Source of the DNA: an uncultured Candidatus Saccharibacteria bacterium
GTDB lineage: Bacteria; Patescibacteriota; Minisyncoccia; Phycocordibacterales; Phycocordibacteraceae
NCBI GenBank assembly: GCA_964391975.1
Contig: CAYMNZ010000003.1
Location: 1 to 49,448 of the forward strand
Direction: 5' to 3'
Length of the DNA: 49,448 bases
Positions 5,255-49,448 of this stretch are shown piece after piece. The position numbers and the translations under genes were made by a program. Each line of letters opens with the position of its first letter. Position 1 is the first letter of the stretch. Below the pieces are notes generated by a model. It had not been told where the DNA came from and ran no database searches. It was given only the letters and a program-made list of their open reading frames with translations.

Positions 5255-5476
5255 ATGTCCCGCGCAGGCACCCTCATCCTTCTCGGCATCCTCATCGCCC
5301 TTACGCCGTTTATCGGCCTTCCGCTTTCTATACTCGCGTGGGTACTTCCTATACTGGGACTCTTAGTTCTTCTCACTGGCGTAGCACTTCGCCGCCGTGT
5401 GCAGGCTGAGGAGCGCCCTGCAGAGCCACCAGCTGCTGCCCCTTCCTTCGATATCCATGAGCCGCCGCAGGCTTAG
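5255..5476 (+). CDS. Small hypothetical membrane protein (two hydrophobic helices, Pro/Ala-rich tail)
   Basis: 73-aa ORF. TLILLGILIALTPFIGLPLSILAWVLPILGLLVLLTGVAL is strongly hydrophobic. No family recognised. Its 3' end overlaps the next gene by 20 nt. Confidence 0.4.
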   Translation: MSRAGTLILLGILIALTPFIGLPLSILAWVLPILGLLVLLTGVALRRRVQAEERPAEPPAAAPSFDIHEPPQA

Positions 5477-9465: not shown

Positions 9466-9469
9466 ACCT

Positions 9470-25510: not shown

Positions 25511-27330
25511 AAACCGCTGTCCTCATCTACTATCTTGAACAGATTCCGACGCTTACAGCGTACCTAAAGAAATCCTCGGATGTCTTGGTGATCGCGCTTG
25601 GGGCTGATATTGAACGTGCACTTACGGAAGCGGGGATACCGTTTCGTTCCGGTGAGGACCTGCGTACCGTTCCTCCGGTTGAGCGTCTCGCGTATGCAGA
25701 GAAGGTCGCACAGAGCGTGTTCAATGATACGCGTCTCGCGTTCCTCTCACATCGGGACGTACCGTTTGGGAAGACTCATGCACTTGGGGTACAGGAATAT
25801 CTTGCCGTGTTCCTTTACTACGTAGACATGCTACAGACGCTGATCACACGAGAACGAGTTGAAAAACTTGTTGCTCTGCAGTCAAGCCGCAGGGCGTTCG
25901 TTGCGGACGTGCTTGCTGATTCAATGGAGGCAATTGTTGAGGACGCTGCGCGGCTTGTGGCCTCTACACATGCCATTGAGTTTGATGTGCTGGCAGTTCC
26001 TGGTTTCCGCAGGATTCAGCAACAGAAATCTCTTTTTGTTGTTAAGCGTATGCTATTTGGAGGCCTGCTTTTGATACTCAACGCTGTTGTTTCTGTACTC
26101 AGACGCCCCAAGCCCGTTCGGCTCCTCATAAGTGATGTGTGGCGCAACTGTGAACCATATCTCAAGGAACTCACGGAAGGAGAGGTGGTGTTGTGGGAAC
26201 GAACGGAAGCACAGAAGATAGGCTGGAAGAATATCCTGCATTACCGCATGCGCTTCATGCACGCAGACGCATTCTCTCTTCCGGTACATGCACAAACTGC
26301 TCGAAGAGTGAGTGAGGAAGTATGTACGCAGTGGAATCAGGTGAAATCTAAGATAGAGACCATAGAGACTGCGTCATTCGCAGGCGTCTCGCTTAAGGAG
26401 GTTATGCTACGCGTTGTCGATTTGAGTATCCGCGAGGGAACTAGGCGAGATGTAGAGGATATTGAAGACATCTACCGAATGCTTGAACGTCTGAAGCCGC
26501 AGGTGGTGCTCGTGCGTGCCAGCGAGTCTCTACAGACGCATTTCCCGTTCCTCTGCTATGTCGCTGAAGCGCTGGGTATTCCTGCCATTGAGGTTCAGCA
26601 TGGTCTCCTCTACGTGGGTCCCGGCTCCTTTGCTTCGCACCCAGCTGCCAAGCGTATGGCAACCTACGGTCCACTCGCAAGCAGGGAGTTTGCCAAGCTT
26701 GGAGTCGAGAATCTGTATCCGACCGGCTCACCACGATTCGACCAGTACGCCAAAGCTCCTTCCGCCGGGAAGGAAAGCGGCACACTGCAGATAGCGTACG
26801 CGGTATCTACGCTTACTCCCGGATGGTGGATTGATACCTACGACGTGAAGCGCGCACTCGAAGCACTTTCTGGGGCGACCAGTCGTATGGGTGCAAAGGT
26901 TCGTGTAGTAGTGCGTCCCGATTCTCCGTACGCGCCTTTCTTGAAAAACGTAGTAGCTACTCTTGCAGAGAAGAACCAAAACCTATCCCTCTCGAACGTC
27001 CCACTCCAGCGTCTGATTGATGAATCTGATCTCTTCCTTACAGGATTCTCGACCGTCCTTCTTGAAGCTCTGCTCGCAGGGAAGGTCGCCGTCTACGACG
27101 GAACGATGCCCATGTATGGCTCCATGCTCGACACTGAGACATTATTCCGTGAGGTTCCGGTACCATCCGTAACGAGTGCTGCAGACCTCGAGTCGCTCCT
27201 CTCAGTACTTGCAGATTCGACGGAACGTACGCGTGTGCGCGAAATGCTTGGCATAAGCCTTGCGAAGGAATATGTAAACGACGGAGGAGCGAGTCGTCGG
27301 TTTGCAGAGCTCGTACGTTCCTTCTCTTAA
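25507..27330 (+). CDS. Uncharacterised large transferase-like protein (possible TagF/CDP-glycerol glycerophosphotransferase-like or capsule-type GT-B fold)
   Basis: Clean 607-aa ORF, ATGA-coupled to the upstream GT. Weak resemblances only: AIEVQHGLLY…YPTGSPRFDQY and LFLTGFSTVLLEALLAGKVAVY. The CDS call is secure; the function is not. Confidence 0.55.
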   Translation: MKTAVLIYYLEQIPTLTAYLKKSSDVLVIALGADIERALTEAGIPFRSGEDLRTVPPVERLAYAEKVAQSVFNDTRLAFLSHRDVPFGKTHALGVQEYLAVFLYYVDMLQTLITRERVEKLVALQSSRRAFVADVLADSMEAIVEDAARLVASTHAIEFDVLAVPGFRRIQQQKSLFVVKRMLFGGLLLILNAVVSVLRRPKPVRLLISDVWRNCEPYLKELTEGEVVLWERTEAQKIGWKNILHYRMRFMHADAFSLPVHAQTARRVSEEVCTQWNQVKSKIETIETASFAGVSLKEVMLRVVDLSIREGTRRDVEDIEDIYRMLERLKPQVVLVRASESLQTHFPFLCYVAEALGIPAIEVQHGLLYVGPGSFASHPAAKRMATYGPLASREFAKLGVENLYPTGSPRFDQYAKAPSAGKESGTLQIAYAVSTLTPGWWIDTYDVKRALEALSGATSRMGAKVRVVVRPDSPYAPFLKNVVATLAEKNQNLSLSNVPLQRLIDESDLFLTGFSTVLLEALLAGKVAVYDGTMPMYGSMLDTETLFREVPVPSVTSAADLESLLSVLADSTERTRVREMLGISLAKEYVNDGGASRRFAELVRSFS

Positions 27331-38773: not shown

Positions 38774-39553
38774 ATGTATATACTTCAGGCAATGGATGAG
38801 CTCGTCATAGGGGAGAAGAAGTACATTTCGTCGAAGAAGGCGGCAGAGCTTACGGGCTATGCCAAGGACTACATTGGTCAGCTTTGTAGAGAGGGGCGCG
38901 TAGAGGCACGCCTGGTGGGGCGTAGCTGGTACGTACTAGAGAGCTCAATCGCAGAACATCGCTTCGGGAAGCAGGAAGAAGTGGTAAAAGAACCAGAGGC
39001 TGAGGAGTCAGAAGTTGTAGAGGAGTCAGGATGGAAGTCCCCGAGGTACGTTACAGAGACGGTAGCAACGCTCCCAGAGCTTATAGAGCGCCCACGAGCA
39101 CCTCTACCTAGTAGCCTCAATCTTCTTGCAAGGGATAGAAATATTATCTCGGCTGCCGATATAGCTAGTAATCAGGCCGAAGTAGAGCTAGTTCCAATTT
39201 CTCGGCAAGAAGAGCCGGCTGAAGAACCTCCGGCTGCACCTCAAGGAGACGACGAAGAGGTCTCTGTTACTTTGCATAGGGTTGCACCTCACGTCGCTCC
39301 ACAAACCAAGGATATGGACGTCATTGTCCCTACACCTGCCCCAAGACGCCATCTAGAGACGCAAGTTGAGCCTAGAAAGATAAGAAAACAGGGAAGCCTG
39401 GTCAAATCATCCATAGTGATAGCTATTGCGCTCGTTGCAATCAGCATAATGCTCCTAGGAACCGGGGCAGCGGACCGTTACCTACTTCCAGCAGCACAAG
39501 AATCAGGTTTAATAAAATATCTCGGTGGGAAGAGTACCTATATTAAGCAGTAA
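38774..39553 (+). CDS. Tail-anchored membrane protein with N-terminal excisionase/MerR-type HTH-like module, acidic Pro-rich linker and C-terminal TM helix
   Basis: YISSKKAAELTGYAKDYIGQLCREGRVEARLVGRSWYVLESSI fits the HTH_17-type pattern (…GR.W.v….l). The linker is rich in E/P. TM SSIVIAIALVAISIMLLGTG lies near the C-terminus (~39405-39470). The start could instead be ATG 38792. Confidence 0.7.
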   Translation: MYILQAMDELVIGEKKYISSKKAAELTGYAKDYIGQLCREGRVEARLVGRSWYVLESSIAEHRFGKQEEVVKEPEAEESEVVEESGWKSPRYVTETVATLPELIERPRAPLPSSLNLLARDRNIISAADIASNQAEVELVPISRQEEPAEEPPAAPQGDDEEVSVTLHRVAPHVAPQTKDMDVIVPTPAPRRHLETQVEPRKIRKQGSLVKSSIVIAIALVAISIMLLGTGAADRYLLPAAQESGLIKYLGGKSTYIKQ

Positions 39554-39653
39554 ATAAAGTGTTTCTCGTCTCGTAAAAACAAGAATATATAAAATAGTCA
39601 CCACTCCCTATAGTCCCCTTGTAAATTTTTTACTACCAAGAGCAGAAACTAAT

Positions 39654-39683
39654 GCGTCTAGCGTCTGCTAGGCGTATTTTTTA
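39654..39683 (+). terminator. Probable intrinsic terminator of gene 38774..39553
   Basis: Stem GCGTCTAGC (39654-39662) / GCTAGGCGT (39667-39675) with G-U wobbles, loop GTCT, tail ATTTTTTA. Confidence 0.55.
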
Positions 39684-39799
39684 TCGCACTCTCCTAGATA
39701 AAGTGAGTTATTTACTTACTTTCTGCTGCTTGAGAGAAATTTTCTAAGCCGATAAGCGTTGTCGGAGCACTCTTCATTTTGGAATTCGCAGGAATTCTT

Positions 39800-39829: not shown

Positions 39830-39910
39830 AATTTTATCCCCATCATTTTATATTTTTTTAAGTAAAGTGGGAGATTATCGCATAAACTATGTGTAAGTCG
39901 GATAGCCGAT

Positions 39911-42900
39911 ATGACTACTCCTCTCAACACCAATTTGATTTCCACGAAGCACGCTTCGGAAATTTCTGGATACCATCCGGACTACATTGGTCGACTCTGT
40001 CGGTCAGGAAAAATTAACTCAACTCAGTTCGGACGCAGCTGGCTCGTTGACCGCGATTCCCTTGTTGCATTTTGTAAGACTCAAGACCAAAAGAAAAAAG
40101 AAAGTGCCGAAGAGCTCTCCCGTATACGTGAACAAGAATACCAAGTTGCACGTAACGGTCACAGTGGTCACGTATCGCTCAAAACGACCTCTAGAACTCC
40201 TGCAGTGCGTAATCGGGGGAAGAGTATCCCAAGTCCTTTTTTCGATAATGCTGTCGCAACGCTTGTCGCGCTTGTTGTTGGAACAGCAAGCTTGTATGCA
40301 CTTCATTCTCCAGTCGGGCAGTTTGTTGGCACGAAAGCGCTTGAGGTCACGTCTACCACGGCGCTTGGTGTTCGAATCCTCGCGGCGGACCTTCCGGCGT
40401 GGCCGACCATTGATCGGCATACGACTGCTAATGCAACGGTTGGGCTGCAGGCTCCAATTTTTACAGGACCAATCGTTATTCCGTCAGTTGCACAAACCGA
40501 CGTAACTACCGGATATATAGCTGTATCGGATACCGACCTTCCTCTAGAAAACGATGTAAACACTAAAGGTCGGCTGCAAAGTATTCCAGTCGCAAGCCTT
40601 GTAGCTTCAGCGGGTAATGCTCTCGCTAATCCGCAAGGTACCCTTACGGATATATATATAGGTATAGGAGAAAGTGTTCATTCGCTCATAGTTGGGGGGC
40701 TCGAGACGTATACCAACGGATTGGCCGATGCGGGCAACCTTTGGATTGAGAGTGGCTACTCTGCACGTGACGCATTGTTCGCGCTCGGTGAGTCTGGACT
40801 CGCCGCAGAGCTCAGTTTAGGGAATGGCACTATCCGAACAGCAGAGGCTATTCTCGATGCACACGAAGTTGGAATCTATGGATTTATCGAGTCGACCCCA
40901 CAAATTTCTCTTGCGGTACTCAAAACTGCCCATGCGATAGGGGACACCGTGGCGTCTGCGGTTGCGTCGGTCCCCCCAAGCCTCGCCAGTGGGTACGATG
41001 GTGCAGTGGTGGGTTGGGTGGAAGGCTCATTAGGTGTCGCTTCCTCTATGGAGAGGAACCTCCTTGCTGCAGCCCACAACATCAACCAAGCAGGGGACTC
41101 CATCCGCACCGCGTACCTAGAGGCCATTAATGGCACTGGCTCGCTGGCCTACGAAAATGCAAATGGAGTCGTTTCGGGCACGCGTGCCACTGGTCAGGCG
41201 CTCGCGCTCGCATTCTCTGGGGAGGGGCCAGATTTTGTTGCATTGGTCACGCAGCAGCGCGATGTTTTCGGCTCAACAGTTCAAGAACGCTCAGACTCAC
41301 AAAGTGCTAGTGGTGCGCTTGCTGCAGCGACTGCAGAGGCTTCCATATATAAGGTGGGGGAAGATGTGGCGCTTTACACGTACGTCACCATCAACAACCT
41401 GTTCTACAAAGGACTCTCGGCCGTCGCTTCACTTTTCAAACAAGCACCAGTCGCGTTCGTACCTCTGCCACAAGGCGACACAACGTCAGCGGGCACGAGC
41501 TCCTCGTACTCTATTATTTCGCAGACGCCGGTTCAGAACATTGTTAACCAGATTACGATACAGGGTGTCACGTTTGATTATCTCGAGCGTCGTCTTCGAG
41601 AGACACGTTCAAGTATTCTCGATAGTCGTGCAATCTCGAACAACTCTTCGAATTCGAATAGCGGAGGCGGAGGGTCGGGAAGTGTGACATCAGTTGATGC
41701 GTCGGGTGGTACGACCGGGCTCACATTTACGGGCGGTCCAATTACTTCAACAGGAACACTCACACTTTCTGGCACACTCAATCTCATCAACGGAGGAACT
41801 GGACTCACTAGCTACACCGCAGGTGACATTCTCTATGCGGATGGCAGCGGCAATCTTGCAAAACTTCCAGTAGGCTCTGCAGGCCAAGTACTTAAAGTGA
41901 CCGCCGGATTCCCGGCATGGGGAGCTGACATTAGCGCAAGTGGTGGGGCTGGTGCATGGGCAACGACGACTGACAGTCTTGCTGTTTATCCCACTGACAC
42001 TTCGAATGTCGTCATTATTGGCAGTAACGCTACCTCAACAACTGGAAATATCTTTGAGGTGGTTGGCAACGCACTCTTCCGTGGAGCAATCACTACGTAC
42101 AACGTACTCACTGCATCGAATTTCACTTCCACCTCAACAACCGCAATCAACACGTTCCCGAATCTCTCGACAACCAACGCGACCTCGACTGGCTCTCTCT
42201 ATATCACACCGCTCGGCACTGCAGCCGGTACATTCCTTGCGGTTGATGCAAACGGTCGGGTGATTGCAACGACCTCACCACTTGCGGCAGCGGTGACGTC
42301 CATCGGTCCTGCAGGACAGACGGCAGACGGCCCAGCTGTCACGTTTGCCACCTCTTCAACCGCTTTCAATGGATTGACGCCTAATCTCACCATCACTGGC
42401 TCGGGTGATACCCTAACGTATACTTCCGCACTTTCCGGAACACTAGGCGTTGGTGGAGGAGGAACTGGCCAGACCACATTCACTTCAGGTCAGCTGCTCT
42501 ACGGCAACGGCACTGCTGCACTCTCTTCGGTCGCAACAACCTCTCTCACGCTCGCTTCTGAGTTCTCACACTCTGGCACTATTGGCTCTCTCATCGGCGG
42601 CGCAGCTGGAACTCTTTCTCTTACGAACAGCGGCGTCGCACTCACCAAACTCGCACAGATTGCTGCAAACTCGATCCTCGGCAATCTCACGGGAGCGACA
42701 GGGAACGTAACGGCAATTGCAACGTCTTCTCTCGGTATTGCTCTTAGTGATACGACTGGCACGCTCGCCGTGAATAGGGGAGGCACTGGCGCCGCAACGT
42801 TCACCAACAATCGTTTGCTAACCGGCAATGGTACGAGTGCGCTTGTCGATGAAGCGAACCTTACTTTTGATGGTTCGCTTCTGACCGTTACTGGAAACGC

Positions 42901-45900
42901 CTCAACGACCGGTATCAGTTCTTCTTACGCATCTTCAACGAATGCATTCTTCGGTAATCTCTCAATCGGTTCGCTCACAGGAATTCTTAAGGCAACCGCT
43001 GGTGTCGTTTCAACAGCAACTGCGGGCGTCGACTTCGAAAATCCACTCTCCTTTATATATCCACTTGTTCGTTCGGTAGATTCCATCTCTCTTGCCTTCG
43101 GCACCACAACTGCCAACAGCTGGAGCGCACACAATATATTTAGCTCACTTTTTGCGACAAACGCATCTACGACCAATGCAACGACGACCGGTACGCAATA
43201 CATAACGCCGCTCGGTACCGCAGCTGGCGCATTTTTGGCAGTTGATCCTACCGGAAAGGTTATTGCTACTAGTACGCCTTCTGGTGGTTCGGGCATCACT
43301 GCCATCGGTCCTACCGGACAAACCGCAGATGGCCCAACAGTCACTTTTGCGACTTCAACGAGTGCTAACAACGGCCTCACACCAAACCTTGTTATTACCG
43401 GTTCTGGCGACACTCTTACCTATACCTCCTCACTCTCCGGCACCCTCACGAATGCCGGTCTCGCAAACTCAACTGTTTCCTACGGAGGCGTAACACTCTC
43501 GCTCGGAGGAAGTGATGCCACTCCAGCCTTCGACCTCACTGATGCAACGAACCTTCCAATCGTTGCGGGCACCACTGGCACCCTCACGGTCGCGCGAGGC
43601 GGCACGGGCCAAACTTCGTTCACCTCAAGCCAACTTCTCTACGGCAATGGCACTGCTGCACTCTCGAGTGTTGCCACTACATCCCTCACGCTCGCTTCTG
43701 AGTTCTCGCACTCTGGCACTATCGGTTCCTTGATTGGTGGCGCTGCCGGCACACTCTCCCTTACAAATAATGGCGTTGCGCTCACGAAACTTGCGCAAAT
43801 CGCTGCCAACTCGATTCTCGGCAACCTGACCGGAGCAACAGGGGACGTTACCGCGATTGCGACCTCTTCCTTATATACAGGCACGCCTGGCCAGGTGTTG
43901 GCGAGAGTTGGCTCGACATGGGTAGGAGTTGCAACGACTACTGCAGGAACTGGCCTCACATATGACGGGACATCATTCAATGTCGATTCGTCGCAGTTCA
44001 CCCCAACCACTCGTACGCTCACAGTCGCGGGGACCGCAAACCAAATCACTTCTTCTGCAGGTGCCCAAGATCTTTCGGCCAACCGCACGTGGACGCTCTC
44101 GCTCCCATCCCATGTCGTTTTCCCTGGGAACTTCCAGGTAACGAACTCAACGACCACGAACGCGACAACGACCGCACTTGATGTGACGGGACTCCTTACC
44201 TTCGGTGGAGTGACAGGAAACAGTTGGGATGACTTCTGCACCACTATTACTGGTGGCTCAGGTCTCTGTGATGGCGTAGACAACACGGGTGGAGGTGCTG
44301 GGCTCGCGACGTCAACAGATATCGCAGATACTCAAATAATCTATGGCACCAGCGCATCGGACGTAGGATCGGAAGCGGTGTTTACCTACGACGACGCAAC
44401 TGACAGGCTCACGGTCATTAATGCCTCCACCACCAACATCAGTGCCTCCTATGCATCTTCAACCCAAGGATTCTTTGGCAACCTCTCGATAGGAAACCTT
44501 ACTGGATTCCTCAAGGCGACCGCGGGCGTTGTCTCCACTGCAACTATTGATCTCGTGAACGATGTCGGGTCTTCCATTCTTGCGGTGGTCAATGGCGGTA
44601 CAGGATGGGGCAATATCACCGCTAATGCGATTCTCTTGGGTAATGGCACGAGTAGACTTGCCACCACCTCTGCGGGAACGAATGGTCAGGTGCTCGCTCT
44701 TGTCGGAGGAGTGCCAACGTGGACCGCAACTACAACTGCAGGCACAGGCCTCACATACTCGGGGGGTGCATTCAACGTCAATACATCACAAAACATCGCT
44801 ACACTTTCCAACCTCACCTCAGATGGTGTCGTCTACACGTCAGGTGGCGCAGGTACGCTCAACGTAGATTCTGGGGCTCTTGATGTTGCGCGGGGAGGTA
44901 CAGGGCAGGCGACCTTCACCTCAAGCCAACTCCTCTACGGCAACGGCACATCTGCACTCTCATCAGTTGCCACAACCTCGCTCACACTTGCTTCTGAGTT
45001 TTCTCACTCAGGCACCATTGGTTCCTTAATAGGAGGAAGTGCAGGAACTCTCTCACTTACCAACAATGGTGTTGCACTTACAAAACTTGCGCAGATTGCC
45101 GCTAACTCCATTCTTGGAAACATAACTGGCGCAGCAGGGAACGTCACAGCTTTCGCGACTTCCTCGCTCGGGATTGCGTTGAGCGACACCACTGGCACGC
45201 TCGCAGTAGATAGGGGAGGCACTGGGGCGGCCACCTTCACGGACAACCGCATCCTCACCGGCAACGGTACAAGCGCACTTGTTGACGAAGCAAACCTCAC
45301 CTTCGATGGTTCTCTCCTTACGGTGACGGGAAACGCTTCGACCACGCAGCTCACGACCACGGGCAGTAGCTATCTTGCAACAATGGGGGGGAATGTGGGG
45401 GTTGGTACCACCTCGCCATGGGGCAGGTTCTCCATAAACAATTCGACGAATGACCCAGCTGGGCAGCCGCTGTTCGTGATCGCGAGCTCCACTGCGAGCG
45501 CGACAACAACACTCCTTAGCGTGAGAAATGACGGAGCGCTGCTCGTATTTGATGGAACCAGTAACGGTTCCACTAAATCGATTGGTTTCCAGAGCCAGCC
45601 TGACCTAGGCTTCTTCCGTCGTGCAGCGAATCGCATTACATTTGGGGAAAATACTGGCAATTTGGAGTTCGTGTCCTCTGGCACCAATGACGGCATACGA
45701 TTGGCTGGAGGAGCCGATATAATCTGGACCAGTACATCGCTTGCTTCAGGAACGGATGATACCTTTTTCCATCGTGTTGCTGCCGGTACTGTCGGTGTGG
45801 GTACTGCAAGTGCCGGCCAAGCGGGGTTGATGTCAGGCACCTTCGCCGCCGAACGTCTCGGCCTTGGTACTACCACTCCGTACGCCCAGCTCTCCATAGT

Positions 45901-48900
45901 CGCCACCTCAACAAACGGTGTAGGCGCACCAACCACTTTGTTCGCCATCGCATCGACCACGGCAGGGACGGCGACTTCAACGCTGTTCTCTATAGGAAAT
46001 ACAGGAACCATCACTACGGTTCTCGGCACCCCTGCCGGCACTTTCCTAGCTGCAGATCCGTCAGGTAACATCATCGCCACCACCTCTCCAAGCAGTGGGG
46101 GAATCACAGCGATCGGTCCTACTGGCCAGACCGCAGATGGCCCAACAGTCACGTTCGCAACTTCATCGACCGCCTTCAACGGCCTTACCCCAGGCCTCAC
46201 TATCACAGGCTCAGGAGACACACTGACTTTTGCTTCCGCACTCTCCGGCACACTCGACAACGCAGGACTTACAAACAGCACTGTCTCGTATGGTGGCGTC
46301 TCGCTCGCGCTTGGTGGAAGCGACGCCACTCCGGCATTCGACCTCACTGATGCAACGAACCTTCCAATCGTTGCGGGCACCACTGGCACGCTCACCGTCG
46401 CGCGAGGCGGCACAGGACAAACCACATTCACATCTGGTCAACTGCTCTACGGCAACGGTACAGCAGCGCTCTCGAGTGTTGCCACAACCTCTCTCACTCT
46501 CGCTTCTGAGTTCTCACACTCAGGAACTATTGGTTCCTTGATTGGCGGCGTCGCAGGAACGCTCTCGCTGACTAACAACGGCGTTGCACTCACCAAGCTC
46601 GCGCAGATTGCAGCGAACTCGATTCTTGGAAACGTAACTGGTGCAGCCGGGAACGTAACTGCAATTGCGACTTCATCGCTCGGCATCGCAATCTCTGACA
46701 CCACCGGCACCCTTGCTGTTGATAGGGGAGGCACTGGCGCAGCGACCTTCACCAACAACCGCGTCCTCACCGGTAACGGCACGAGCGCACTGGTTGATGA
46801 AGCGAACCTCACCTTCGACGGCACTATACTTTCAACGCCAAGCCTTTCCGTAGCCAATGCAACCAGCACCGACTCGCTCTACATCACGCCGCTTGGTACT
46901 GCGGCCGGCACCTTCCTTGCTGCAGACCCAACTGGACGCATCATCGCTACCACGACTCCTTCAAGTAGCGGCGGCATCACCGCCATCGGCCCGGCCGGAC
47001 AAACCGCAGATGGCCCGACGGTCACGTTTGCCACCTCAACAAGTGCCAACAATGGCCTCACCCCGAATCTTGTCATTACCGGTTCAGGTGACACTCTCAC
47101 GTATACCTCCTCTCTCTCGGGCACTCTCACGAACGCGGGTCTCGCAAACTCCACAGTCTCCTACGGCGGCGTCACTCTCTCTCTCGGCGGCTCAGATGCA
47201 ACTCCTGCCTTCAACCTCGTAGATGCCACGGGCCTCCCAATCTCAACCGGCGTCTCAGGACTCGGCACTGGGGTTGCCACAGCGCTCGGTGTCAACGTCG
47301 GCACCGCTGGATCGTTTGTTGTGAATGGTGGGGCACTTGGCACGCCGTCCTCGGGTACACTCACCAACGCCACGGGGCTCCCAATCTCGACCGGTGTTTC
47401 GGGTCTTGCGGCTGGTATCGCCACATGGCTAGGCACTCCGTCGTCCGCAAACCTCATAACTGCAGTCACCGACGAAACAGGATCAGGTGCCCTTGTCTTT
47501 GCAACGAGTCCATCCTTCACCACTCCAATTCTTGGCACTCCTACGTCAGCAACCCTCACCAATGCAACCGGCCTCCCAATCTCAACCGGCGTCTCGGGAC
47601 TGGGTACTGGTGTGGCAACGTTCCTCGGAACGCCGTCGAGCGCGAACCTAATTACCGCAGTTACTGACGAAACTGGCTCTGGCGCTCTTGTCTTCGGCAC
47701 GAGCCCTACTATTTCTGGTGCCACCCTCTCGGGAAACGTAAGTCTTGCAAATGCCACTTCCACTAACCACTTCGTCCAGACACTTTCCGCAAACACGGCG
47801 CGCTTCGGTCAGACCGCCACCTCCTCCTTCGCTTCCACTGGTGCACTTACGCTTGCAACCGCACTCACCGTTGCAAACGGAGGCACGGGCGCAACCACGC
47901 TCACTGGCATGCTCAAAGGCAACGGAACTAGCGCATTCACTGCCGGGGTAGATGGTACAGACTTCACGCTTACTAACGCCATCACATGTACTAACCAGGC
48001 CATTACTGCTGTCACCGCTGCAGGAGTATCGACCTGTTCATCTATTAACGACGCCTACTGGTCAGGCACCGACCTCTCGGTTGCCAACGGAGGCTCTGGC
48101 GCCTCAACGCTGACGGGTATTCTCCTTGGAAACGGCACTTCAGCCTTTACCGGACTTACCACCTCTGCGGGCATTAGTGGCGCGCTTTCGGACGAAACTG
48201 GCTCTGGCGCTCTCGTCTTTGCAACGAGTCCGTCGTTTACAACACCAGCACTCGGTACGCCATCTTCAGGAACTCTTACCAACGCAACGGGTCTTCCAAT
48301 CTCAACTGGTGTTTCGGGACTGGGCACTGGTGTCGCGACATTCCTCGGAACACCGTCGTCAGCGAACCTTCGTACCGCGCTTACAGACGAGACGGGCACA
48401 GGAGCTGCTGTATTCGCTGACGCTCCTACACTCACCAGTACGCTAACGCATACTGGACAGATATTCGCCAACACAAACGCTACCAACTTCGTGCTGACTG
48501 GTTTGACTGACATCTATGTAGATCTCGACAACGACAGTAACGGCACAAACTCATTTATTATTAGGAACGGATCCGACGTGGCTGCGCTCACCCTTACTGA
48601 GGGCGGAGTCCTCACCACGGGAGGTGATATCTCAGTCGGCGGCGGTACCGGGAAAATTACCGTCGGTACAATCGACCCGGTCTATACGATAGATGGGGTT
48701 AATTACGCAACGTACGTCGCTGGCATGGTGGGACAGAAGGAAGAGGTGACTGGCACCGCTGATGTCGTGACGCCGACGACGGCAGCTGACGGCAGTACGG
48801 GCTACTCCTACACGGTTGATTTTGACGAGGAGATGGCGGGCAACGACCTCTGGCTCTTCTCTCAGGCGTCACATCTACGCAAGAACATCGACAAGCTCGT

Positions 48901-49448
48901 CGTGCTCCTCTCAGCAGAAGGAGGGACTAAGGTGTGGTACAACGTCGACCGCGCAAACCGGAAAGTGTACTTCCTTTCCGATGTACCGACACGCGTTTCC
49001 TACCGCATGACGGCTCCTCGGTTCGACTACGAGACATGGACGAACTACAACCAGGATGCGGTTAACGGATTCGTACCACCGTACGATGACCTCGATGATT
49101 ACTTTGATGACAGTAGCGATATGTTCTCCTTCAGCAATACCAACCTGCTGTCAGGCACCACAACCCTTGCGGACCTTATCGAGCAGGTACCGGAAGACGA
49201 GGAGGGAGAGACGAAACCGTGGATGGGTGCACTTGCGGGCGTGAGCACTGGACTTAAGGAGGCGATGGACTCATTGACGGAGGTGACAATCAACGCCTTT
49301 GAAGGTGCGCAGTACTACGCTGACGGCATCTTCAAGCGCATCTTCGCGCAAGAAGTGCACACCGACCAGCTCTGTGTCTCCGACGAGACAGGAGAGACCT
49401 GCATCACGCGTGCACAGCTTAATGATCTGCTTGCGGGAGCAGCAGCCT
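39911..49448 (+). CDS. Giant membrane-anchored repeat protein, 3'-partial (>=3,179 codons): HTH-like module + TM helix + tail-fibre-like Thr/Gly/Ser/Asn-rich ectodomain. NOT in the supplied ORF track
   Basis: I translated frame 2 codon by codon from ATG 39911 to base 49447 and met no stop. The upstream in-frame stop is TAA 39863-39865, with no alternative start between. The protein repeats are coherent, and all listed ORFs in this span are out-of-frame or antisense. Confidence 0.9.
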   Translation, partial: MTTPLNTNLISTKHASEISGYHPDYIGRLCRSGKINSTQFGRSWLVDRDSLVAFCKTQDQKKKESAEELSRIREQEYQVARNGHSGHVSLKTTSRTPAVRNRGKSIPSPFFDNAVATLVALVVGTASLYALHSPVGQFVGTKALEVTSTTALGVRILAADLPAWPTIDRHTTANATVGLQAPIFTGPIVIPSVAQTDVTTGYIAVSDTDLPLENDVNTKGRLQSIPVASLVASAGNALANPQGTLTDIYIGIGESVHSLIVGGLETYTNGLADAGNLWIESGYSARDALFALGESGLAAELSLGNGTIRTAEAILDAHEVGIYGFIESTPQISLAVLKTAHAIGDTVASAVASVPPSLASGYDGAVVGWVEGSLGVASSMERNLLAAAHNINQAGDSIRTAYLEAINGTGSLAYENANGVVSGTRATGQALALAFSGEGPDFVALVTQQRDVFGSTVQERSDSQSASGALAAATAEASIYKVGEDVALYTYVTINNLFYKGLSAVASLFKQAPVAFVPLPQGDTTSAGTSSSYSIISQTPVQNIVNQITIQGVTFDYLERRLRETRSSILDSRAISNNSSNSNSGGGGSGSVTSVDASGGTTGLTFTGGPITSTGTLTLSGTLNLINGGTGLTSYTAGDILYADGSGNLAKLPVGSAGQVLKVTAGFPAWGADISASGGAGAWATTTDSLAVYPTDTSNVVIIGSNATSTTGNIFEVVGNALFRGAITTYNVLTASNFTSTSTTAINTFPNLSTTNATSTGSLYITPLGTAAGTFLAVDANGRVIATTSPLAAAVTSIGPAGQTADGPAVTFATSSTAFNGLTPNLTITGSGDTLTYTSALSGTLGVGGGGTGQTTFTSGQLLYGNGTAALSSVATTSLTLASEFSHSGTIGSLIGGAAGTLSLTNSGVALTKLAQIAANSILGNLTGATGNVTAIATSSLGIALSDTTGTLAVNRGGTGAATFTNNRLLTGNGTSALVDEANLTFDGSLLTVTGNASTTGISSSYASSTNAFFGNLSIGSLTGILKATAGVVSTATAGVDFENPLSFIYPLVRSVDSISLAFGTTTANSWSAHNIFSSLFATNASTTNATTTGTQYITPLGTAAGAFLAVDPTGKVIATSTPSGGSGITAIGPTGQTADGPTVTFATSTSANNGLTPNLVITGSGDTLTYTSSLSGTLTNAGLANSTVSYGGVTLSLGGSDATPAFDLTDATNLPIVAGTTGTLTVARGGTGQTSFTSSQLLYGNGTAALSSVATTSLTLASEFSHSGTIGSLIGGAAGTLSLTNNGVALTKLAQIAANSILGNLTGATGDVTAIATSSLYTGTPGQVLARVGSTWVGVATTTAGTGLTYDGTSFNVDSSQFTPTTRTLTVAGTANQITSSAGAQDLSANRTWTLSLPSHVVFPGNFQVTNSTTTNATTTALDVTGLLTFGGVTGNSWDDFCTTITGGSGLCDGVDNTGGGAGLATSTDIADTQIIYGTSASDVGSEAVFTYDDATDRLTVINASTTNISASYASSTQGFFGNLSIGNLTGFLKATAGVVSTATIDLVNDVGSSILAVVNGGTGWGNITANAILLGNGTSRLATTSAGTNGQVLALVGGVPTWTATTTAGTGLTYSGGAFNVNTSQNIATLSNLTSDGVVYTSGGAGTLNVDSGALDVARGGTGQATFTSSQLLYGNGTSALSSVATTSLTLASEFSHSGTIGSLIGGSAGTLSLTNNGVALTKLAQIAANSILGNITGAAGNVTAFATSSLGIALSDTTGTLAVDRGGTGAATFTDNRILTGNGTSALVDEANLTFDGSLLTVTGNASTTQLTTTGSSYLATMGGNVGVGTTSPWGRFSINNSTNDPAGQPLFVIASSTASATTTLLSVRNDGALLVFDGTSNGSTKSIGFQSQPDLGFFRRAANRITFGENTGNLEFVSSGTNDGIRLAGGADIIWTSTSLASGTDDTFFHRVAAGTVGVGTASAGQAGLMSGTFAAERLGLGTTTPYAQLSIVATSTNGVGAPTTLFAIASTTAGTATSTLFSIGNTGTITTVLGTPAGTFLAADPSGNIIATTSPSSGGITAIGPTGQTADGPTVTFATSSTAFNGLTPGLTITGSGDTLTFASALSGTLDNAGLTNSTVSYGGVSLALGGSDATPAFDLTDATNLPIVAGTTGTLTVARGGTGQTTFTSGQLLYGNGTAALSSVATTSLTLASEFSHSGTIGSLIGGVAGTLSLTNNGVALTKLAQIAANSILGNVTGAAGNVTAIATSSLGIAISDTTGTLAVDRGGTGAATFTNNRVLTGNGTSALVDEANLTFDGTILSTPSLSVANATSTDSLYITPLGTAAGTFLAADPTGRIIATTTPSSSGGITAIGPAGQTADGPTVTFATSTSANNGLTPNLVITGSGDTLTYTSSLSGTLTNAGLANSTVSYGGVTLSLGGSDATPAFNLVDATGLPISTGVSGLGTGVATALGVNVGTAGSFVVNGGALGTPSSGTLTNATGLPISTGVSGLAAGIATWLGTPSSANLITAVTDETGSGALVFATSPSFTTPILGTPTSATLTNATGLPISTGVSGLGTGVATFLGTPSSANLITAVTDETGSGALVFGTSPTISGATLSGNVSLANATSTNHFVQTLSANTARFGQTATSSFASTGALTLATALTVANGGTGATTLTGMLKGNGTSAFTAGVDGTDFTLTNAITCTNQAITAVTAAGVSTCSSINDAYWSGTDLSVANGGSGASTLTGILLGNGTSAFTGLTTSAGISGALSDETGSGALVFATSPSFTTPALGTPSSGTLTNATGLPISTGVSGLGTGVATFLGTPSSANLRTALTDETGTGAAVFADAPTLTSTLTHTGQIFANTNATNFVLTGLTDIYVDLDNDSNGTNSFIIRNGSDVAALTLTEGGVLTTGGDISVGGGTGKITVGTIDPVYTIDGVNYATYVAGMVGQKEEVTGTADVVTPTTAADGSTGYSYTVDFDEEMAGNDLWLFSQASHLRKNIDKLVVLLSAEGGTKVWYNVDRANRKVYFLSDVPTRVSYRMTAPRFDYETWTNYNQDAVNGFVPPYDDLDDYFDDSSDMFSFSNTNLLSGTTTLADLIEQVPEDEEGETKPWMGALAGVSTGLKEAMDSLTEVTINAFEGAQYYADGIFKRIFAQEVHTDQLCVSDETGETCITRAQLNDLLAGAAA
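39935..40063 (+). other. HTH-like module of the giant protein, paralogous to 38822..38950
   Basis: LISTKHASEISGYHPDYIGRLCRSGKINSTQFGRSWLVDRDSL versus YISSKKAAELTGYAKDYIGQLCREGRVEARLVGRSWYVLESSI gives 21/43 identical residues, ungapped (counted by hand). Confidence 0.6.
40250..40309 (+). other. Predicted single transmembrane helix of the giant protein
   Basis: AVATLVALVVGTASLYAL is preceded by a basic segment (RNRGKS), which implies an N-in / C-out topology. Confidence 0.6.
42200..47220 (+). repeat. In-frame composite super-repeats inside the giant gene (modules A, A', B, D, E)
   Basis: Module A (YITPLGTAAGTFLAVD…ITAIGPxGQTADGPxVTFATS…ITGSGDTLTY) occurs at about 42200, 43199, 46027 and 46877. 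Module B (…RGGTGQTxFTSxQLLYGNGTAALSSVATTSLTLASEFSHSGTIGSLIGG…LTKLAQIAANSILGN…) occurs at about 42448, 43583, 44878 and 46390. Module D (YASSTxxFFGNLSIGxLTGxLKATAGVVSTAT) occurs at about 42925 and 44445. Confidence 0.85.
47221..48420 (+). repeat. Second repeat family in the giant gene (~65-aa unit ATGLPISTGVSGLGTGVATFLGTPSSANLITAVTDETGSGALVFATSPSFTTPxLGTPSSGTLTN)
   Basis: Copies begin at about 47227, 47371, 47566 and 48286, with a partial copy at about 48170. The spacing 47371 to 47566 is 195 nt. Confidence 0.8.

What the first reader, a model, noticed from the sequence alone, without database searches (positions are those of the whole stretch)
39911..49448. Giant open-ended ORF (>=3,179 codons) absent from the supplied ORF track
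I read frame 2 (+) codon by codon from ATG 39911 to the end of the window and met no TAA, TAG or TGA. The nearest upstream in-frame stop is TAA 39863-39865, with no other ATG/GTG/TTG between it and 39911. The track lists only short out-of-frame or antisense ORFs here (e.g. 45370..46431 -, 353 aa), presumably because it requires a stop codon.

The product has a cytoplasmic HTH-like module, one TM helix, and more than 3,000 aa of almost charge-free Thr/Gly/Ser/Ala/Asn/Leu-rich ectodomain built of nested repeats. It ends in a non-repetitive acidic region (…YDDLDDYFDDSSD…) that is still open. The gene occupies about 19% of the window and is incomplete.

A giant envelope fibre on a small-genome cell is a prime candidate for host attachment or an S-layer/adhesin function.
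Basis: seen in the sequence. Interest (0 to 1): 0.9.

Follow-up and report, generated by a model that had tools for sequence, protein, structure and literature searches.

The report
Giant membrane-anchored phage-fibre-like surface protein
The open frame is a real 3,273-codon gene of a tiny-genome Patescibacteria (CPR) bacterium; it encodes a membrane-anchored surface fibre built partly from phage tail-fibre repeats, carries a DNA-binding-type domain on the cytoplasmic side, and has a conserved palindrome at its own start codon, an architecture I could not find described in the library of papers available here.

Summary
ATG 39911 to 49448 is open for 3,179 codons, while the other five frames have 52-228 stops. 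The gene is truly coding: internal repeat copies are 87-95% identical as protein but 75-82% as DNA, with dN/dS 0.02-0.11. The full gene on the 742-kb source contig is 3,273 aa. A second sample's assembly is 100% identical across the 9.5 kb.

The protein has these parts, N- to C-terminal:
- an excisionase-type winged HTH
- one TM helix
- a helical base
- a ~2,300-aa Thr/Gly/Ser-rich shaft
- a CPR-specific globular C-terminal module
- a Gly/Asp tail

Two shaft modules recur in phage structural or tail-fibre proteins at 60-84% aa identity. The anchor and the tip are CPR-only.

It is gene 2 of a two-gene cassette conserved in 80 of 83 CPR loci. Gene 1 is a small tail-anchored HTH protein. A 12-nt palindrome (TCGGATATCCGA) abuts the ATG of gene 2 in 71 of 83 loci.

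The most likely function is a long adhesive or host-contact fibre, with expression or locus tethering possibly mediated by the HTH and the palindrome. Both functions are untested. I rate it a new variant of the known class of giant CPR surface proteins.

The parts
38774..39553 (+). Gene 1 of the cassette. It encodes a small protein with an N-terminal HTH_17-type domain, an acidic/Pro-rich linker and a single TM helix about 50 aa from the C-terminus (tail-anchored). The ORF is 259 aa; orthologues suggest the start is Met-7, at nt 38792.
   Evidence: HTH_17 at E 9.5e-5. Its HTH is 37% identical to the giant's over 78 aa. Orthologues sit in the same position in L018 and L019 with a near-identical HTH. 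A small HTH/C-terminal-TM gene lies upstream of the large gene in 80 of 83 loci.
39651..39685 (+). Terminator-like hairpin plus T-run after gene 1, suggesting that the giant gene has its own promoter.
   Evidence: 12-pair stem, with 2 sites found against 0.3 expected.
39898..39909 (+). 12-nt quasi-palindrome TCGGATAGCCGA (family consensus TCGGATATCCGA), 1 nt before the ATG of the giant gene. It is a candidate operator or a 5' RNA hairpin.
   Evidence: It is the only match in the 49-kb window. A site with at most 3 mismatches lies 0-2 nt before the ATG of the large gene in 71 of 83 loci: 20 perfect, 36 with one mismatch.
39911..49448 (+). Giant ORF, residues 1-3179 of a 3,273-aa protein. The last 94 aa (Gly/Asp/Ser tail) lie beyond the window.
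39932..40159 (+). Cytoplasmic excisionase/MerR-type winged helix-turn-helix, residues 8-83.
   Evidence: pLDDT is above 90. Foldseek matches Pukovnik Xis 4j2n (TM 0.73-0.75, rmsd 1.5 A), TraN, BldC, RdfS and RacA. 65 of 72 family members hit HTH_17, up to E 1e-15.
40235..40306 (+). Single transmembrane helix, residues about 109-132. The topology is inferred as N-in.
   Evidence: It is the only 19-residue window with hydropathy above 1.7. R/R/K residues lie on the N-side flank. 138 of 150 family members have a TM after the HTH.
40307..41638 (+). Conserved extracellular 'base', residues 133-576, predicted as long helices at low confidence.
   Evidence: Many of the 150 best-scoring family members listed align over about residues 1-570. 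Helices 245-327, 329-412 and 470-509 have pLDDT below 60. There is no Pfam hit.
41687..48622 (+). Shaft, about 2,300 aa of nested Thr/Gly/Ser/Ala-rich repeats (modules A-D plus variant segments), with 12 '[NDRG]GG[TS]G' motifs.
   Evidence: dN/dS between copies is 0.02-0.11. The AF2 monomer model is low-confidence here.
42434..42976 (+). Module B, about 180 aa, reference copy. Other copies are at 43574-44053, 44870-45409 and 46382-46876.
   Evidence: Copies are 89-95% identical as protein and 75-82% as DNA. There are 15 partial matches in viral contigs and a weak hit to tail-fibre PHROG 31660.
43427..43579 (+). Module C, about 50 aa (NAGLANSTVSYGGVTLSLGGSDATPAFDLTDATNLPI). Other copies are at 46235-46387 and 47108-47260.
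   Evidence: There are 176 viral-contig stretches; the best 80 are mostly 63-82% identical over about 45 aa. It also matches the Synechococcus phage S-SKS1 'baseplate wedge subunit'.
47258..47830 (+). Module D array, built from an approximately 64-aa repeat (LGTPxSGTLTNATGLPISTGVSGLGTGVATFLGTPSSANLxxAxTDETGSGALVFxxSP). A second block lies at 48188-48520.
   Evidence: It is 63% identical over 128 aa to a virion-module protein of Pseudomonas phage PfAn1. At least 583 IMG/VR stretches match, at up to 84% aa identity. In L100 it sits inside a protein that hits tail-fibre PHROGs. DNA identity is about 69%.
48623..49075 (+). C-terminal globular module 1, residues about 2905-3055 (GGGTGKITVGTIDPVY...SYRMTAPRFDY). 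It is CPR-specific.
   Evidence: pLDDT is 90-97. More than 125 small CPR proteins carry it. It has no Pfam or PDB sequence match and no viral-contig match. The best fold hit is the cyanophage Pam1 tailspike RBD, which is not significant.
49076..49219 (+). Acidic linker (…PPYDDLDDYFDDSSD…EDEEGE…).
49220..49447 (+). C-terminal module 2, residues 3104-3179: a long helix, then a Cys-Cys beta-hairpin and a helix (YADGIFKRIF..EVHTDQLCVSDETGETCITRAQLNDLLAG). It continues into the Gly/Asp tail outside the window.
   Evidence: pLDDT 55-81. The same segment follows a Peptidase_S74 domain in P0026 and precedes Ig-like PF16403 domains in P0001, P0003 and P0005.

Best explanation
The frame is a genuine gene for a 3,273-aa single-pass membrane protein of a Paceibacterota-type CPR bacterium.

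Proposed layout:
- An excisionase/MerR-type winged HTH stays in the cytoplasm (inferred from the positive-inside flank).
- One TM helix anchors the protein.
- A helical base probably crosses the wall (inferred).
- A ~2,300-residue Thr/Gly/Ser-rich shaft projects a CPR-specific globular module and an acidic Gly/Asp tail away from the cell. The shaft is assembled from old, strongly conserved repeat modules, at least two of which are the same repeats used in phage tail-fibre or virion proteins.

By analogy with phage fibres (N-terminal attachment, repetitive shaft, C-terminal tip), I think it most likely acts as a long fibre, of the order of 100 nm, that contacts or binds another cell or surface. 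Glycosylation is possible.

It is the second gene of a widely conserved CPR cassette. The first gene encodes a tail-anchored paralogous HTH protein. A conserved palindrome sits between a -10-like box and the ATG of gene 2. I infer that one or both membrane-bound HTH domains bind this site, either to feed back on fibre expression or to hold the locus at the membrane.

Shown: coding status, architecture, homologies, cassette and palindrome conservation. Inferred: topology, oligomeric fibre form, adhesion, HTH-palindrome binding.
For: Real gene:
- The frame has 0 stops against 52-228 in the other frames, and RSCU r=0.78.
- Differences between repeat copies fall at third codon positions (for example 5/1/57), with dN/dS 0.02-0.11.
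- Another sample's assembly is identical over 9,538 nt, and three partial assemblies also agree.

Taxon and genomic context:
- Orthologues of 2,006 and 2,369 aa sit in conserved synteny: Wzy_C/TPR, then MurB (in the window and L018), SecA, Obg, GatB, small HTH gene, giant gene.
- Relatives are all CPR MAGs.

Anchor:
- The HTH fold matches Xis, TraN, BldC and RacA.
- 65 of 72 relatives hit HTH_17.
- 138 of 150 relatives have a TM after the HTH.

Phage link:
- Module D is 63% identical to a PfAn1 virion-module protein and up to 84% identical to at least 583 viral stretches. In L100 it lies within a protein that hits tail-fibre PHROGs.
- Module C matches 176 viral stretches.
- BFVD fold hits are to tail and tail-fibre proteins, E 4e-6 to 1e-3.
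- There are weak PHROG tail-fibre and virion hits.

Tip: a confidently folded module shared with more than 125 CPR membrane-anchored proteins.

Cassette and palindrome. In addition, site position 5 tracks the residue in the RL[C/A/V]R recognition-helix motif (confounded by phylogeny).

Literature: large repeat-rich proteins in Parcubacteria and Vampirococcus are already read as adhesins (PMC4508563; 10.1101/2020.11.10.374967).
Against: - There is no expression, localisation or binding evidence.
- The AF2 monomer models are low-confidence for the shaft and base, so neither the fibre form nor trimerisation is shown.
- The giant's own HTH_17 score is below Pfam's cut-off.
- The tip module has no significant structural or sequence match to any known binding domain. 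In most proteins it sits only about 20-60 residues from a membrane anchor. Its ligand could therefore be in the cell's own envelope rather than on a host.
- The phage-shared modules are shaft repeats, not receptor-binding tips.
- The palindrome could act as a 4-bp RNA hairpin or be bound by another factor. Its stem positions never vary, so covariation cannot decide.
- Some IMG/VR 'viral' contigs may be misclassified cellular DNA.
Confidence: 0.6

Rival explanations
1. The protein is primarily a membrane-tethered one-component regulator or sensor that works like ToxR, CadC or TcpP. The ectodomain senses contact or load, and the cytoplasmic HTH, with the small tail-anchored partner as a ToxS-like or competing subunit, controls transcription from the palindrome. 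Adhesion would be secondary.
For: - The cytoplasmic DNA-binding fold, single TM and extracellular domain give the same topology as ToxR-type regulators.
- The partner gene is conserved.
- The palindrome sits exactly at the start of gene 2 in 71 of 83 loci.
- The HTH is the best-conserved part of the family.
Against: - The only site found lies at the gene's own start, which fits autoregulation rather than a regulon. Only about 60 kb of the genome was available to check.
- A 3,100-aa repetitive ectodomain shared with phage fibres is far beyond what sensing needs.
- The HTH is Xis/MerR-type, not OmpR-type.
Confidence: 0.2
2. The protein is a structural envelope component rather than an adhesin: an S-layer stalk, spacer or canopy like archaeal tetrabrachion. 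The C-terminal module would bind the cell's own wall or S-layer or self-associate, and the HTH would serve only as a cytoplasmic anchor, for example to the nucleoid or cytoskeleton as in RacA or RodZ.
For: - In more than 100 small CPR proteins the tip module lies close to the membrane anchor, which suggests a ligand in the cell's own envelope.
- A long helical base is predicted.
- RacA appears among the fold matches.
- The locus sits next to wall and glycan biosynthesis genes and SecA.
Against: - No SLH or other S-layer or cell-wall-binding domain was detected.
- Length and module content differ strongly between orthologues (2,006, 2,369 and 3,273 aa). That is more typical of interaction proteins than of lattice components.
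- There is only one gene copy and no abundance data.
Confidence: 0.15
3. The gene is a phage or tailocin tail-fibre gene within a prophage or mobile element, not a cellular surface protein.
For: Modules C and D are shared with phage proteins. PHROG and BFVD hits are to tail and tail-fibre proteins.
Against: - The neighbours are housekeeping genes (GatB, Obg, SecA, MurB) in conserved synteny across three genomes.
- No phage structural, integrase or terminase genes appear within about 40 kb upstream or 10 kb downstream.
- The N-terminal HTH/TM/base and the C-terminal modules are absent from viral collections and present only in CPR genomes.
- DNA identity to phage copies is only about 69%, and the gene's GC content equals that of the host region.
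Confidence: 0.03
4. The open frame is an artefact: a mis-assembled repeat or a chance or non-coding open frame.
For: Three other partial assemblies end inside the repeat region: two (L003, L006) at nt 3,648 of the gene and one (L004) at about nt 3,508. This shows that repeats do trouble assemblers. The tail length differs by 20 aa between samples.
Against: - Two samples give identical 9,538-nt sequences.
- Repeat copies are only 75-82% identical in DNA, too diverged to collapse.
- dN/dS is 0.02-0.11.
- The chance probability of the open frame is about 1e-52.
- Orthologues share the architecture.
Confidence: 0.02

Closest known systems
Phage long tail fibres and virion fibre proteins, e.g. T4 gp34/gp37-type fibres, PHROG tail-fibre families 11518/381/31660, Pseudomonas phage PfAn1 XRX11813.1
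   Same: The design is the same: N-terminal attachment, a long repetitive shaft, then a C-terminal globular end. Modules C and D are the same sequence repeats, at 60-84% aa identity. BFVD fold matches are to tail proteins.
   Different: - It is anchored in a cell membrane by a TM helix with a cytoplasmic HTH, rather than docked to a baseplate.
- It is encoded among housekeeping genes.
- It is roughly 3-8 times longer than the phage proteins compared here that carry the repeat (409-844 aa).
- The tip and base modules are not found in viral collections.
- Trimerisation was not tested.
Giant surface proteins of CPR/Patescibacteria, read as adhesins: Parcubacteria proteins over 1,500 aa (Nelson & Stegen 2015, PMC4508563) and Vampirococcus proteins of 1,392-4,163 aa (Moreira et al., 10.1101/2020.11.10.374967)
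   Same: It is a very large, repeat-rich, membrane-associated protein in an ultra-small-genome bacterium. One family member (P0044) comes from Parcubacteria bacterium C7867-001, one of the genomes tabulated in that paper.
   Different: Those reports describe domains such as PKD, integrin, fibronectin, WD40 and generic beta-repeats. I did not find described there, or in my other paper searches, the HTH-TM anchor, the two-gene cassette, the palindrome, or the phage-fibre repeat content.
ToxR/CadC/TcpP-type membrane-bound transcription regulators
   Same: N-terminal cytoplasmic DNA-binding domain, one TM helix, extracytoplasmic C-terminal part, and an adjacent small membrane partner gene (as with ToxS and TcpH).
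   Different: The DNA-binding domain is Xis/MerR-type, not an OmpR-type winged helix. The ectodomain is a 3,100-aa fibre. DNA binding is untested.
RodZ and RacA
   Same: RodZ has an HTH, one TM helix and an extracytoplasmic domain, and its HTH is used for protein binding (MreB). RacA is an Xis/MerR-like wHTH that tethers the chromosome to the membrane/pole, and it appears among the fold matches.
   Different: There is no sequence relationship to RodZ (XRE-type HTH; no Pfam hit). RacA is not itself a TM protein. Both comparisons concern mechanism only.
Excisionase/HTH_17 family (PF12728): Xis, BldC, TraN
   Same: The fold matches (TM 0.73-0.75 to Pukovnik Xis). The family-level sequence match holds for 65 of 72 members.
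   Different: Known members are small soluble DNA-binding proteins. Here the domain is fused to a TM helix and a giant ectodomain.
RTX/Bap-type giant adhesins (LapA, MpIBP) and sortase-anchored MSCRAMMs
   Same: A giant repetitive extender with a distal non-repetitive region, and a presumed adhesion function.
   Different: It lacks RTX nonapeptides, BIg/Cadherin repeats, a T1SS signal and an LPXTG motif. The anchoring is opposite: an N-terminal TM helix.

Membership tests
HTH_17 / excisionase-type winged HTH (PF12728) | Sequence match above Pfam's gathering score | tested here: inconclusive
   The giant scores 22.8 bits against a cut-off of 27, and gene 1 scores 23.0 bits. However, 65 of 72 family members match at E<=1e-3, with the best E-value 9.6e-16.
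HTH_17 / excisionase-type winged HTH (PF12728) | Beta-alpha-alpha-beta-beta winged-helix fold of Xis/MerR N-domain type | tested here: met
   pLDDT exceeds 90 for residues 8-83. Foldseek gives 4j2n Xis TM 0.73-0.75 and rmsd 1.5 A, and also matches BldC, RdfS, TraN and RacA.
HTH_17 / excisionase-type winged HTH (PF12728) | Binds DNA | not testable with these tools
   Evidence is indirect only: a conserved palindrome at the gene's own start.
Phage tail fibre proteins | Shaft repeats homologous to those of phage fibre or virion proteins | tested here: met
   Module D. Module C. Module B is only partial.
Phage tail fibre proteins | Encoded in a phage structural gene module or on a phage genome | tested here: not met
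   The synteny is housekeeping and no phage genes were found.
Phage tail fibre proteins | N-terminal virion/baseplate attachment domain | tested here: not met
   The N-terminus is HTH, TM and a CPR-specific base.
Phage tail fibre proteins | Homotrimeric fibre | not testable with these tools
   Only monomer predictions were available. The shaft had low confidence.
ToxR-like membrane-bound transcription regulators | Cytoplasmic DNA-binding domain, single TM helix and extracytoplasmic domain | tested here: met
   Topology is inferred from the positive-inside rule.
ToxR-like membrane-bound transcription regulators | OmpR/PhoB-type winged helix | tested here: not met
   No Trans_reg_C hit was found. 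The fold is Xis/MerR-type.
RTX / T1SS giant adhesins | GGxGxDxUx nonapeptide repeats and BIg-type extender domains | tested here: not met
   The regular-expression search found none. There are no Pfam hits. The Gly/Asp tail lacks the hydrophobic position.
Sortase-anchored wall proteins | N-terminal signal peptide and C-terminal LPXTG sorting signal | tested here: not met
   There is no LPXTG-like motif. The N-terminus is a folded HTH.
S-layer proteins | SLH or other S-layer/cell-wall anchoring domain; lattice-forming | tested here: not met
   No such Pfam domain was found. Lattice formation is not testable here.
CPR 'HTH-TM' two-gene cassette (defined here) | Small tail-anchored HTH gene directly upstream of a large N-anchored HTH gene, with a TCGGATATCCGA-like site abutting the large gene's ATG | tested here: met
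   In the window these are 38774-39553, 39898-39909 and 39911 onward. The cassette is present in 80 of 83 loci and the site in 71 of 83.

The most novel reading that the evidence does not exclude
The conserved CPR cassette is a previously undescribed device in which a giant extracellular fibre is physically and regulatorily coupled to DNA. The membrane-anchored Xis-type HTH of the fibre, its tail-anchored paralogue, or both, would bind the palindrome at the fibre gene's own transcription/translation start. Fibre number, or contact or load on the fibre, would then feed back directly on its expression, or the locus would be tethered to the export site. The fibre shaft itself would be built from tail-fibre repeat modules shared with phages of other bacteria, suggesting that epibiotic CPR cells and phages draw on one pool of cell-surface-reaching fibre parts.
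Probability: 0.3. Interest if true: 0.8.

Novelty: new variant of a known kind. Interest (0 to 1): 0.62.

Why it matters
CPR/Patescibacteria are thought to live attached to other cells, yet apart from type IV pili little is known about how non-Saccharibacteria lineages reach and hold partners.

This locus offers three concrete, testable handles:
- A family-wide anchor module (HTH, TM, base) with about 2,100 relatives in a 1.84-billion-protein library. It marks a whole class of Pfam-dark surface proteins.
- A conserved 12-nt palindrome at the start codon, which makes the puzzling cytoplasmic DNA-binding domain directly testable by EMSA or DAP-seq.
- Two repeat modules shared at 60-84% protein identity with hundreds of phage contigs but absent from Pfam and NCBIfam. 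They link cellular and viral fibres and deserve a family definition and a structure.

The repeat copies have saturated synonymous divergence but are about 90% identical as protein. This is an unusual pattern for a repetitive surface protein, and it explains why the gene assembles.

Tried and rejected
- **Family scans.** Pfam, NCBIfam and PDB-sequence scans of the whole protein and of ten fragments found nothing beyond the HTH.
- **Word-indexed homologue search.** A search with residues 1-560 returned nothing. This was an index limitation, because the exhaustive HMMER search then found 2,134 relatives.
- **Metagenome scan.** A scan with the C-terminus did not return the source contig. The gene end was instead recovered through P0027.
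- **Structure prediction.** AF2 monomer models of the base and shaft were low-confidence, so their fold searches are uninformative there. The PDB fold search of the tip gave no significant hit.
- **Module B in phages.** tblastn against cultured and deposited phage genomes found no match.
- **Promoter and RNA scans.** The sigma-70 scan of the intergenic region found none. Rfam found nothing above threshold.
- **Anchoring motifs.** Searches for LPXTG and RTX motifs were negative.
- **Rejected readings.** Prophage, tailocin and mis-assembly were rejected (see rival explanations).
- **DGR-type hypervariation.** I considered this unlikely. No reverse transcriptase was seen in the neighbourhood Pfam listings, and two samples are 100% identical over 9.5 kb.
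- **Recent phage-to-CPR transfer of module D.** Rejected, because DNA identity is only about 69%.
- **Literature.** Seven full-text searches found no description of this family, cassette or palindrome.


Full report
**Observation**

Translating 39863-49448 in the stated frame gives TAA at 39863-39865, the first start codon at ATG 39911, and then 3,179 codons without a stop to the window end. The ORF lister does not show it because it omits ORFs that run off the sequence. The other five frames of the same stretch hold 52-228 stops. At this composition a stop-free run of that length has a probability of about 1e-52. Relative synonymous codon usage correlates with the window's other 32 genes at r=0.78 in this frame, against 0.09 and 0.32 in the other + frames.

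**It is translated and under selection**

The ectodomain contains nested repeats. I aligned ten ungapped pairs of copies.
- The copies are 87-95% identical as protein but only 75-82% identical as DNA.
- Differences fall overwhelmingly at third codon positions, for example 5/1/57.
- pS is 0.52-0.73 (dS about 0.9-2.6), and dN/dS is 0.02-0.11.

Only the claimed frame explains this pattern. It also shows that the repeats are old and not homogenised. The divergence removes the usual worry about repeat collapse.

**Completeness and independent assemblies**

The upstream 259-aa protein is found on 17 contigs from JGI and Logan samples. The longest contig is 742,107 bp and contains the window.
- On that contig the gene is called as 3,273 aa. 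The representative protein P0027 matches residues 1-576 at 100%.
- The missing 94 residues are a Gly/Asp/Ser low-complexity tail. It is encoded by genuine tandem DNA repeats of 96 nt, 1.9 copies, 96% identical.
- A contig from a different sample (L002) is 100% identical over all 9,538 nt. It carries a 3,293-aa version, so only the tail length differs.
- Three shorter contigs are identical as far as they go. Two of them (L003, L006) end at nt 3,648 of the gene.

**Organism and context**

Named relatives of the N-terminal region are 'helix-turn-helix domain-containing protein' or hypothetical proteins of the Patescibacteria group, Candidatus Paceibacterota and Parcubacteria. All 80 best loci in the GTDB species set are CPR MAGs (Paceibacteria, Kaiserbacteria, Parcubacteria, Minisyncoccia and others), apart from one labelled Bacillota. 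A relative of the neighbouring Wzy_C/TPR protein, at least 90% identical, is annotated from Candidatus Paceibacterota.

The window carries these genes, in order:
- peptidoglycan genes (MurD, MurI, MurC)
- an LTD/PKD surface protein
- a ~22-kb glycan cluster: epimerase, several GT4 and one GT2, PGM/PMM, methyltransferases, deacetylase, carbamoyltransferase, AsnB-like, KdsA-like, CMP-sugar synthetase, flippase and Wzy_C/TPR
- MurB, SecA, Obg and GatB
- the small HTH gene and the giant gene

The order Wzy_C/TPR, SecA, Obg, GatB, small HTH gene, giant gene recurs in two related genomes, where the large gene is 2,006 and 2,369 aa. MurB lies between Wzy_C/TPR and SecA in the window and in L018. The gene is therefore chromosomal and orthologous across species, not part of a prophage.

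**Anatomy: HTH**

Residues 8-83 are predicted with pLDDT above 90 as a winged helix. Foldseek aligns them to the following, all DNA binders of the excisionase/MerR type:
- mycobacteriophage Pukovnik Xis (TM 0.73-0.75, rmsd 1.5 A, probability 1.0)
- Enterococcus TraN
- BldC
- RdfS
- RacA

The giant's own HTH_17 score is below Pfam's cut-off, but 65 of 72 relatives match HTH_17 at E<=1e-3, with the best E-value 9.6e-16.

**Anatomy: TM helix**

There is one hydrophobic helix, at residues about 109-132. Arg/Arg/Lys residues lie on its N-side, so the HTH is inferred to be cytoplasmic. Of the 150 best relatives, all have the HTH at the N-terminus and 138 have a TM helix after it.

**Anatomy: base**

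Residues 133-576 are conserved in many family members. They are predicted as very long helices at low confidence. This could indicate an oligomeric stalk, but that is inference.

**Anatomy: shaft**

Residues about 593-2904 form the shaft. It is Thr/Gly/Ala/Ser-rich with few charges and is built from modules A-D and variant segments. Three close Cys pairs lie in the ectodomain as a whole. It has no Pfam, NCBIfam or PDB sequence match.

**Anatomy: tip**

Residues about 2905-3055 are modelled as a compact alpha/beta module; its core, residues about 2945-3040, has pLDDT 90-97. An acidic linker follows, then a long helix and a Cys-bridged hairpin plus helix, then the Gly/Asp tail.

**Phage connection**

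*Module D.* This is a repeat of about 64 aa.
- It is 63% identical over 128 residues to a hypothetical protein of Pseudomonas phage PfAn1, encoded between head-closure and internal-virion genes.
- It is about 61% identical to an 844-aa protein next to a portal gene in a podovirus genome.
- In IMG/VR at least 583 stretches encode it, at up to 84% aa identity.
- In one 85.7-kb viral contig it sits in a 674-aa protein whose C-terminal half hits tail-fibre PHROGs at about E 1e-45.
- DNA identity to these copies is only about 69%, and the viral loci range from 34 to 69% GC. It is therefore an old, strongly constrained protein repeat rather than a recent transfer.

*Other modules.*
- Module C, about 45-50 aa, occurs in 176 viral stretches; the best 80 are mostly 63-82% identical. 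It also occurs in a Synechococcus phage S-SKS1 structural protein.
- Module B has only 15 partial viral matches.
- The C-terminal modules have none.

Fold search of the 2596-3179 model against predicted viral structures returns tail, minor-tail and tail-fibre-like proteins (E 4e-6 to 1e-3). TM-scores are low, as expected for extended low-confidence models. Neither the phage proteins nor the CPR protein match any Pfam family in these regions.

The protein is therefore a chimera. The ends are CPR-specific, and the shaft shares parts with phage fibres.

**The tip module**

A profile of this module finds more than 125 proteins. Nearly all are 150-260 aa, and those that carry a name come from CPR lineages (Colwellbacteria, Kaiserbacteria, Wildermuthbacteria, Spechtbacteria, Minisyncoccia). 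None has a Pfam domain. Many of those inspected have an N-terminal membrane anchor, and one has a prepilin N_methyl signal.

The best PDB fold match is the cyanophage Pam1 tailspike receptor-binding domain: 92 columns, rmsd about 3.5 A, probability 0.99, but E about 0.1. This is not significant, so the ligand is unknown. Because most carriers hold the module close to their own membrane, a ligand in the cell's own envelope or self-association cannot be excluded.

**A conserved cassette and palindrome**

The gene upstream (38774-39553) encodes a paralogous HTH, 37% identical over 78 aa. Its product also has an acidic linker and a TM helix about 50 residues from its C-terminus. Its HTH is almost invariant among three species.

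I scanned the window, L018, L019 and the 80 GTDB loci with an HMM of the family's HTH. In 80 of 83 loci a small gene (233-370 aa) with an HTH and a C-terminal TM helix lies directly upstream of a large gene with an HTH and an N-proximal TM helix. The three exceptions are truncated upstream.

Immediately before the ATG of the large gene lies a 12-nt palindrome, TCGGATATCCGA.
- It is perfect in 20 loci, has one mismatch in 36, two in 11 and three in 4 of the 83. The gap to the ATG is almost always 1 nt.
- The large proteins in these loci are as little as 24-29% identical to the giant over the N-terminal region.
- The window has TCGGATAGCCGA at 39898-39909, its only occurrence in 49 kb.
- The 45 nt upstream also show a consensus (…GtTAttATtTAgtTAAT-TCGGnTATCCGA-C-ATG) with a -10-like TAttAT about 10 nt before the palindrome. 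The element would therefore lie at or just after the transcription start. No Shine-Dalgarno sequence is evident.
- The element is not found before gene 1.
- Site position 5 tracks the residue in the RL[C/A/V]R motif of the recognition helix: A goes with Cys in 17 of 21 cases, and C goes with Ala or Val in 16 of 17. This is confounded by phylogeny and is only a hint.
- Rfam has no family here.

**Mechanism**

The following is shown:
- a genuine, conserved gene for a single-pass membrane protein with an Xis-type HTH
- a giant repeat shaft sharing modules with phage fibres
- a CPR-specific C-terminal module
- a conserved partner gene
- a conserved palindrome at the start codon

The following is inferred.

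1. *Topology and export.* The topology is N-in, and the 3,100-aa ectodomain is exported.

2. *Fibre form.* The ectodomain forms an extended, probably oligomeric fibre. From my own knowledge, the T4 long tail fibre packs roughly 0.05 nm per residue. On that basis 2,300 residues would give a length of the order of 100 nm, comparable to a CPR cell's radius.

3. *Function.* It acts in contact or adhesion, as proposed for large repeat proteins of Parcubacteria and Vampirococcus (PMC4508563; 10.1101/2020.11.10.374967). The module content and length differ between orthologues: 2,006, 2,369 and 3,273 aa, and the tip is absent from P0041. This fits an interaction protein.

4. *Glycosylation.* It is possibly glycosylated, given the Ser/Thr richness, about 70 N-x-S/T sequons, and the nearby glycan cluster with a Wzy_C/TPR protein. 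This point is speculative.

5. *HTH and palindrome.* The membrane-bound HTH of gene 2, gene 1, or both binds the palindrome. This would give autoregulation or tether the locus at the insertion site.

The rival explanations are a ToxR-like sensor as the main role, an envelope scaffold with a self ligand, a phage element, and an artefact. They are weighed in the Rival explanations section. The last two are essentially excluded.

**Comparison and novelty**

Giant adhesin-like proteins in CPR are known as a class, and databases label relatives 'helix-turn-helix domain-containing protein'. In the papers I could search, I did not find any of the following described:
- the HTH-TM-base anchor family
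- the two-gene cassette
- the start-codon palindrome
- the phage-fibre repeat content
- the C-terminal module

I therefore rate the finding a new variant of a known kind, with moderate-to-high interest. The interest rests mainly on the DNA-binding domain and palindrome, which are directly testable, and on the repeats shared between cells and phages.

Noticed in passing
window 38774-39553 (likely true start 38792): A small tail-anchored protein with an HTH_17-type domain paralogous to the giant's. Its HTH is nearly invariant across three species, and a gene of this type precedes the large gene in 80 of 83 CPR loci.
   Followed up: yes
window 39898-39909, and the equivalent position in L018-L099: A palindrome, TCGGATA(T/G)CCGA, lies 1 nt before the ATG. 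A site with at most 3 mismatches is present in 71 of 83 loci, with a further conserved upstream consensus (…GtTAttATtTAgtTAAT…) and no obvious Shine-Dalgarno sequence.
   Followed up: yes
window 9383-32380: A glycan biosynthesis cluster of about 22 kb. It contains an epimerase, four or five GT4 and one GT2, PGM/PMM, two methyltransferases, a polysaccharide deacetylase fused to an AAA_33 kinase-like domain, carbamoyltransferase, AsnB-like amidotransferase, KdsA-like, CMP-sugar synthetase, flippase, and a 718-aa Wzy_C+TPR protein. In a bacterium expected to lack LPS, the Wzy_C+TPR protein could be a protein O-oligosaccharyltransferase or polymerase. Any link to the Ser/Thr-rich fibre is speculative.
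   Followed up: partly
L015 19895-22525 (just downstream of the window; also in L018): An 876-aa secreted protein with PG_binding_1, Laminin_G_3 and Bact_surface_Ig-like domains. A PT-HINT/Hint domain sits at the very C-terminus with almost nothing after it, so there is no toxin domain. This is unusual for a pretoxin HINT.
   Followed up: partly
L015 22525-28340 (downstream of the window; also in L018): Five consecutive membrane-anchored proteins of 338-417 aa, Cys/His-rich and with no Pfam match on record. The first four look like paralogues of one another.
   Followed up: no
L015 19550-19805 (the tail of the gene, beyond window end): The Gly/Asp tail is encoded by true tandem DNA repeats: a 96-nt unit, 1.9 copies, 96% identical. 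The protein is 3,273 aa in one sample and 3,293 aa in another, a length polymorphism confined to the part of the gene beyond the window end.
   Followed up: partly
window 42434-46876 (module B copies and neighbours): Repeat copies are about 90-95% identical in protein but have near-saturated synonymous divergence (dS about 1-2.6). This is the opposite of the concerted evolution usual in repetitive surface proteins. Possible causes are selection against recombination or independent module acquisition.
   Followed up: partly
window 5397-6524, 6549-8063, 7957-9465, 25507-27330: Three sizeable ORFs (375, 504 and 607 aa) have no Pfam hit, and one is an LTD+PKD surface protein. ORFs 7957-9465 and 9383-10894 overlap by about 80 nt, so the start of 9383-10894 is probably further downstream than listed.
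   Followed up: no
L003, L004 and L006 (other samples): Two independent short-read assemblies (L003, L006) both break at nt 3,648 of the gene (residue 1216, the start of the second module-B copy), and a third (L004) ends about 140 nt earlier. This is a fragmentation point that would hide the gene in many MAGs.
   Followed up: partly
window 47258-47830; L016 5470-6699; L017 5680-8214; L100-L179: The module D repeat of about 64 aa is very common in phage contigs and in cultured phages of Pseudomonas and Bradyrhizobium, yet it has no Pfam or NCBIfam model. Only PHROGs 14483 and 6002 touch it.
   Followed up: yes
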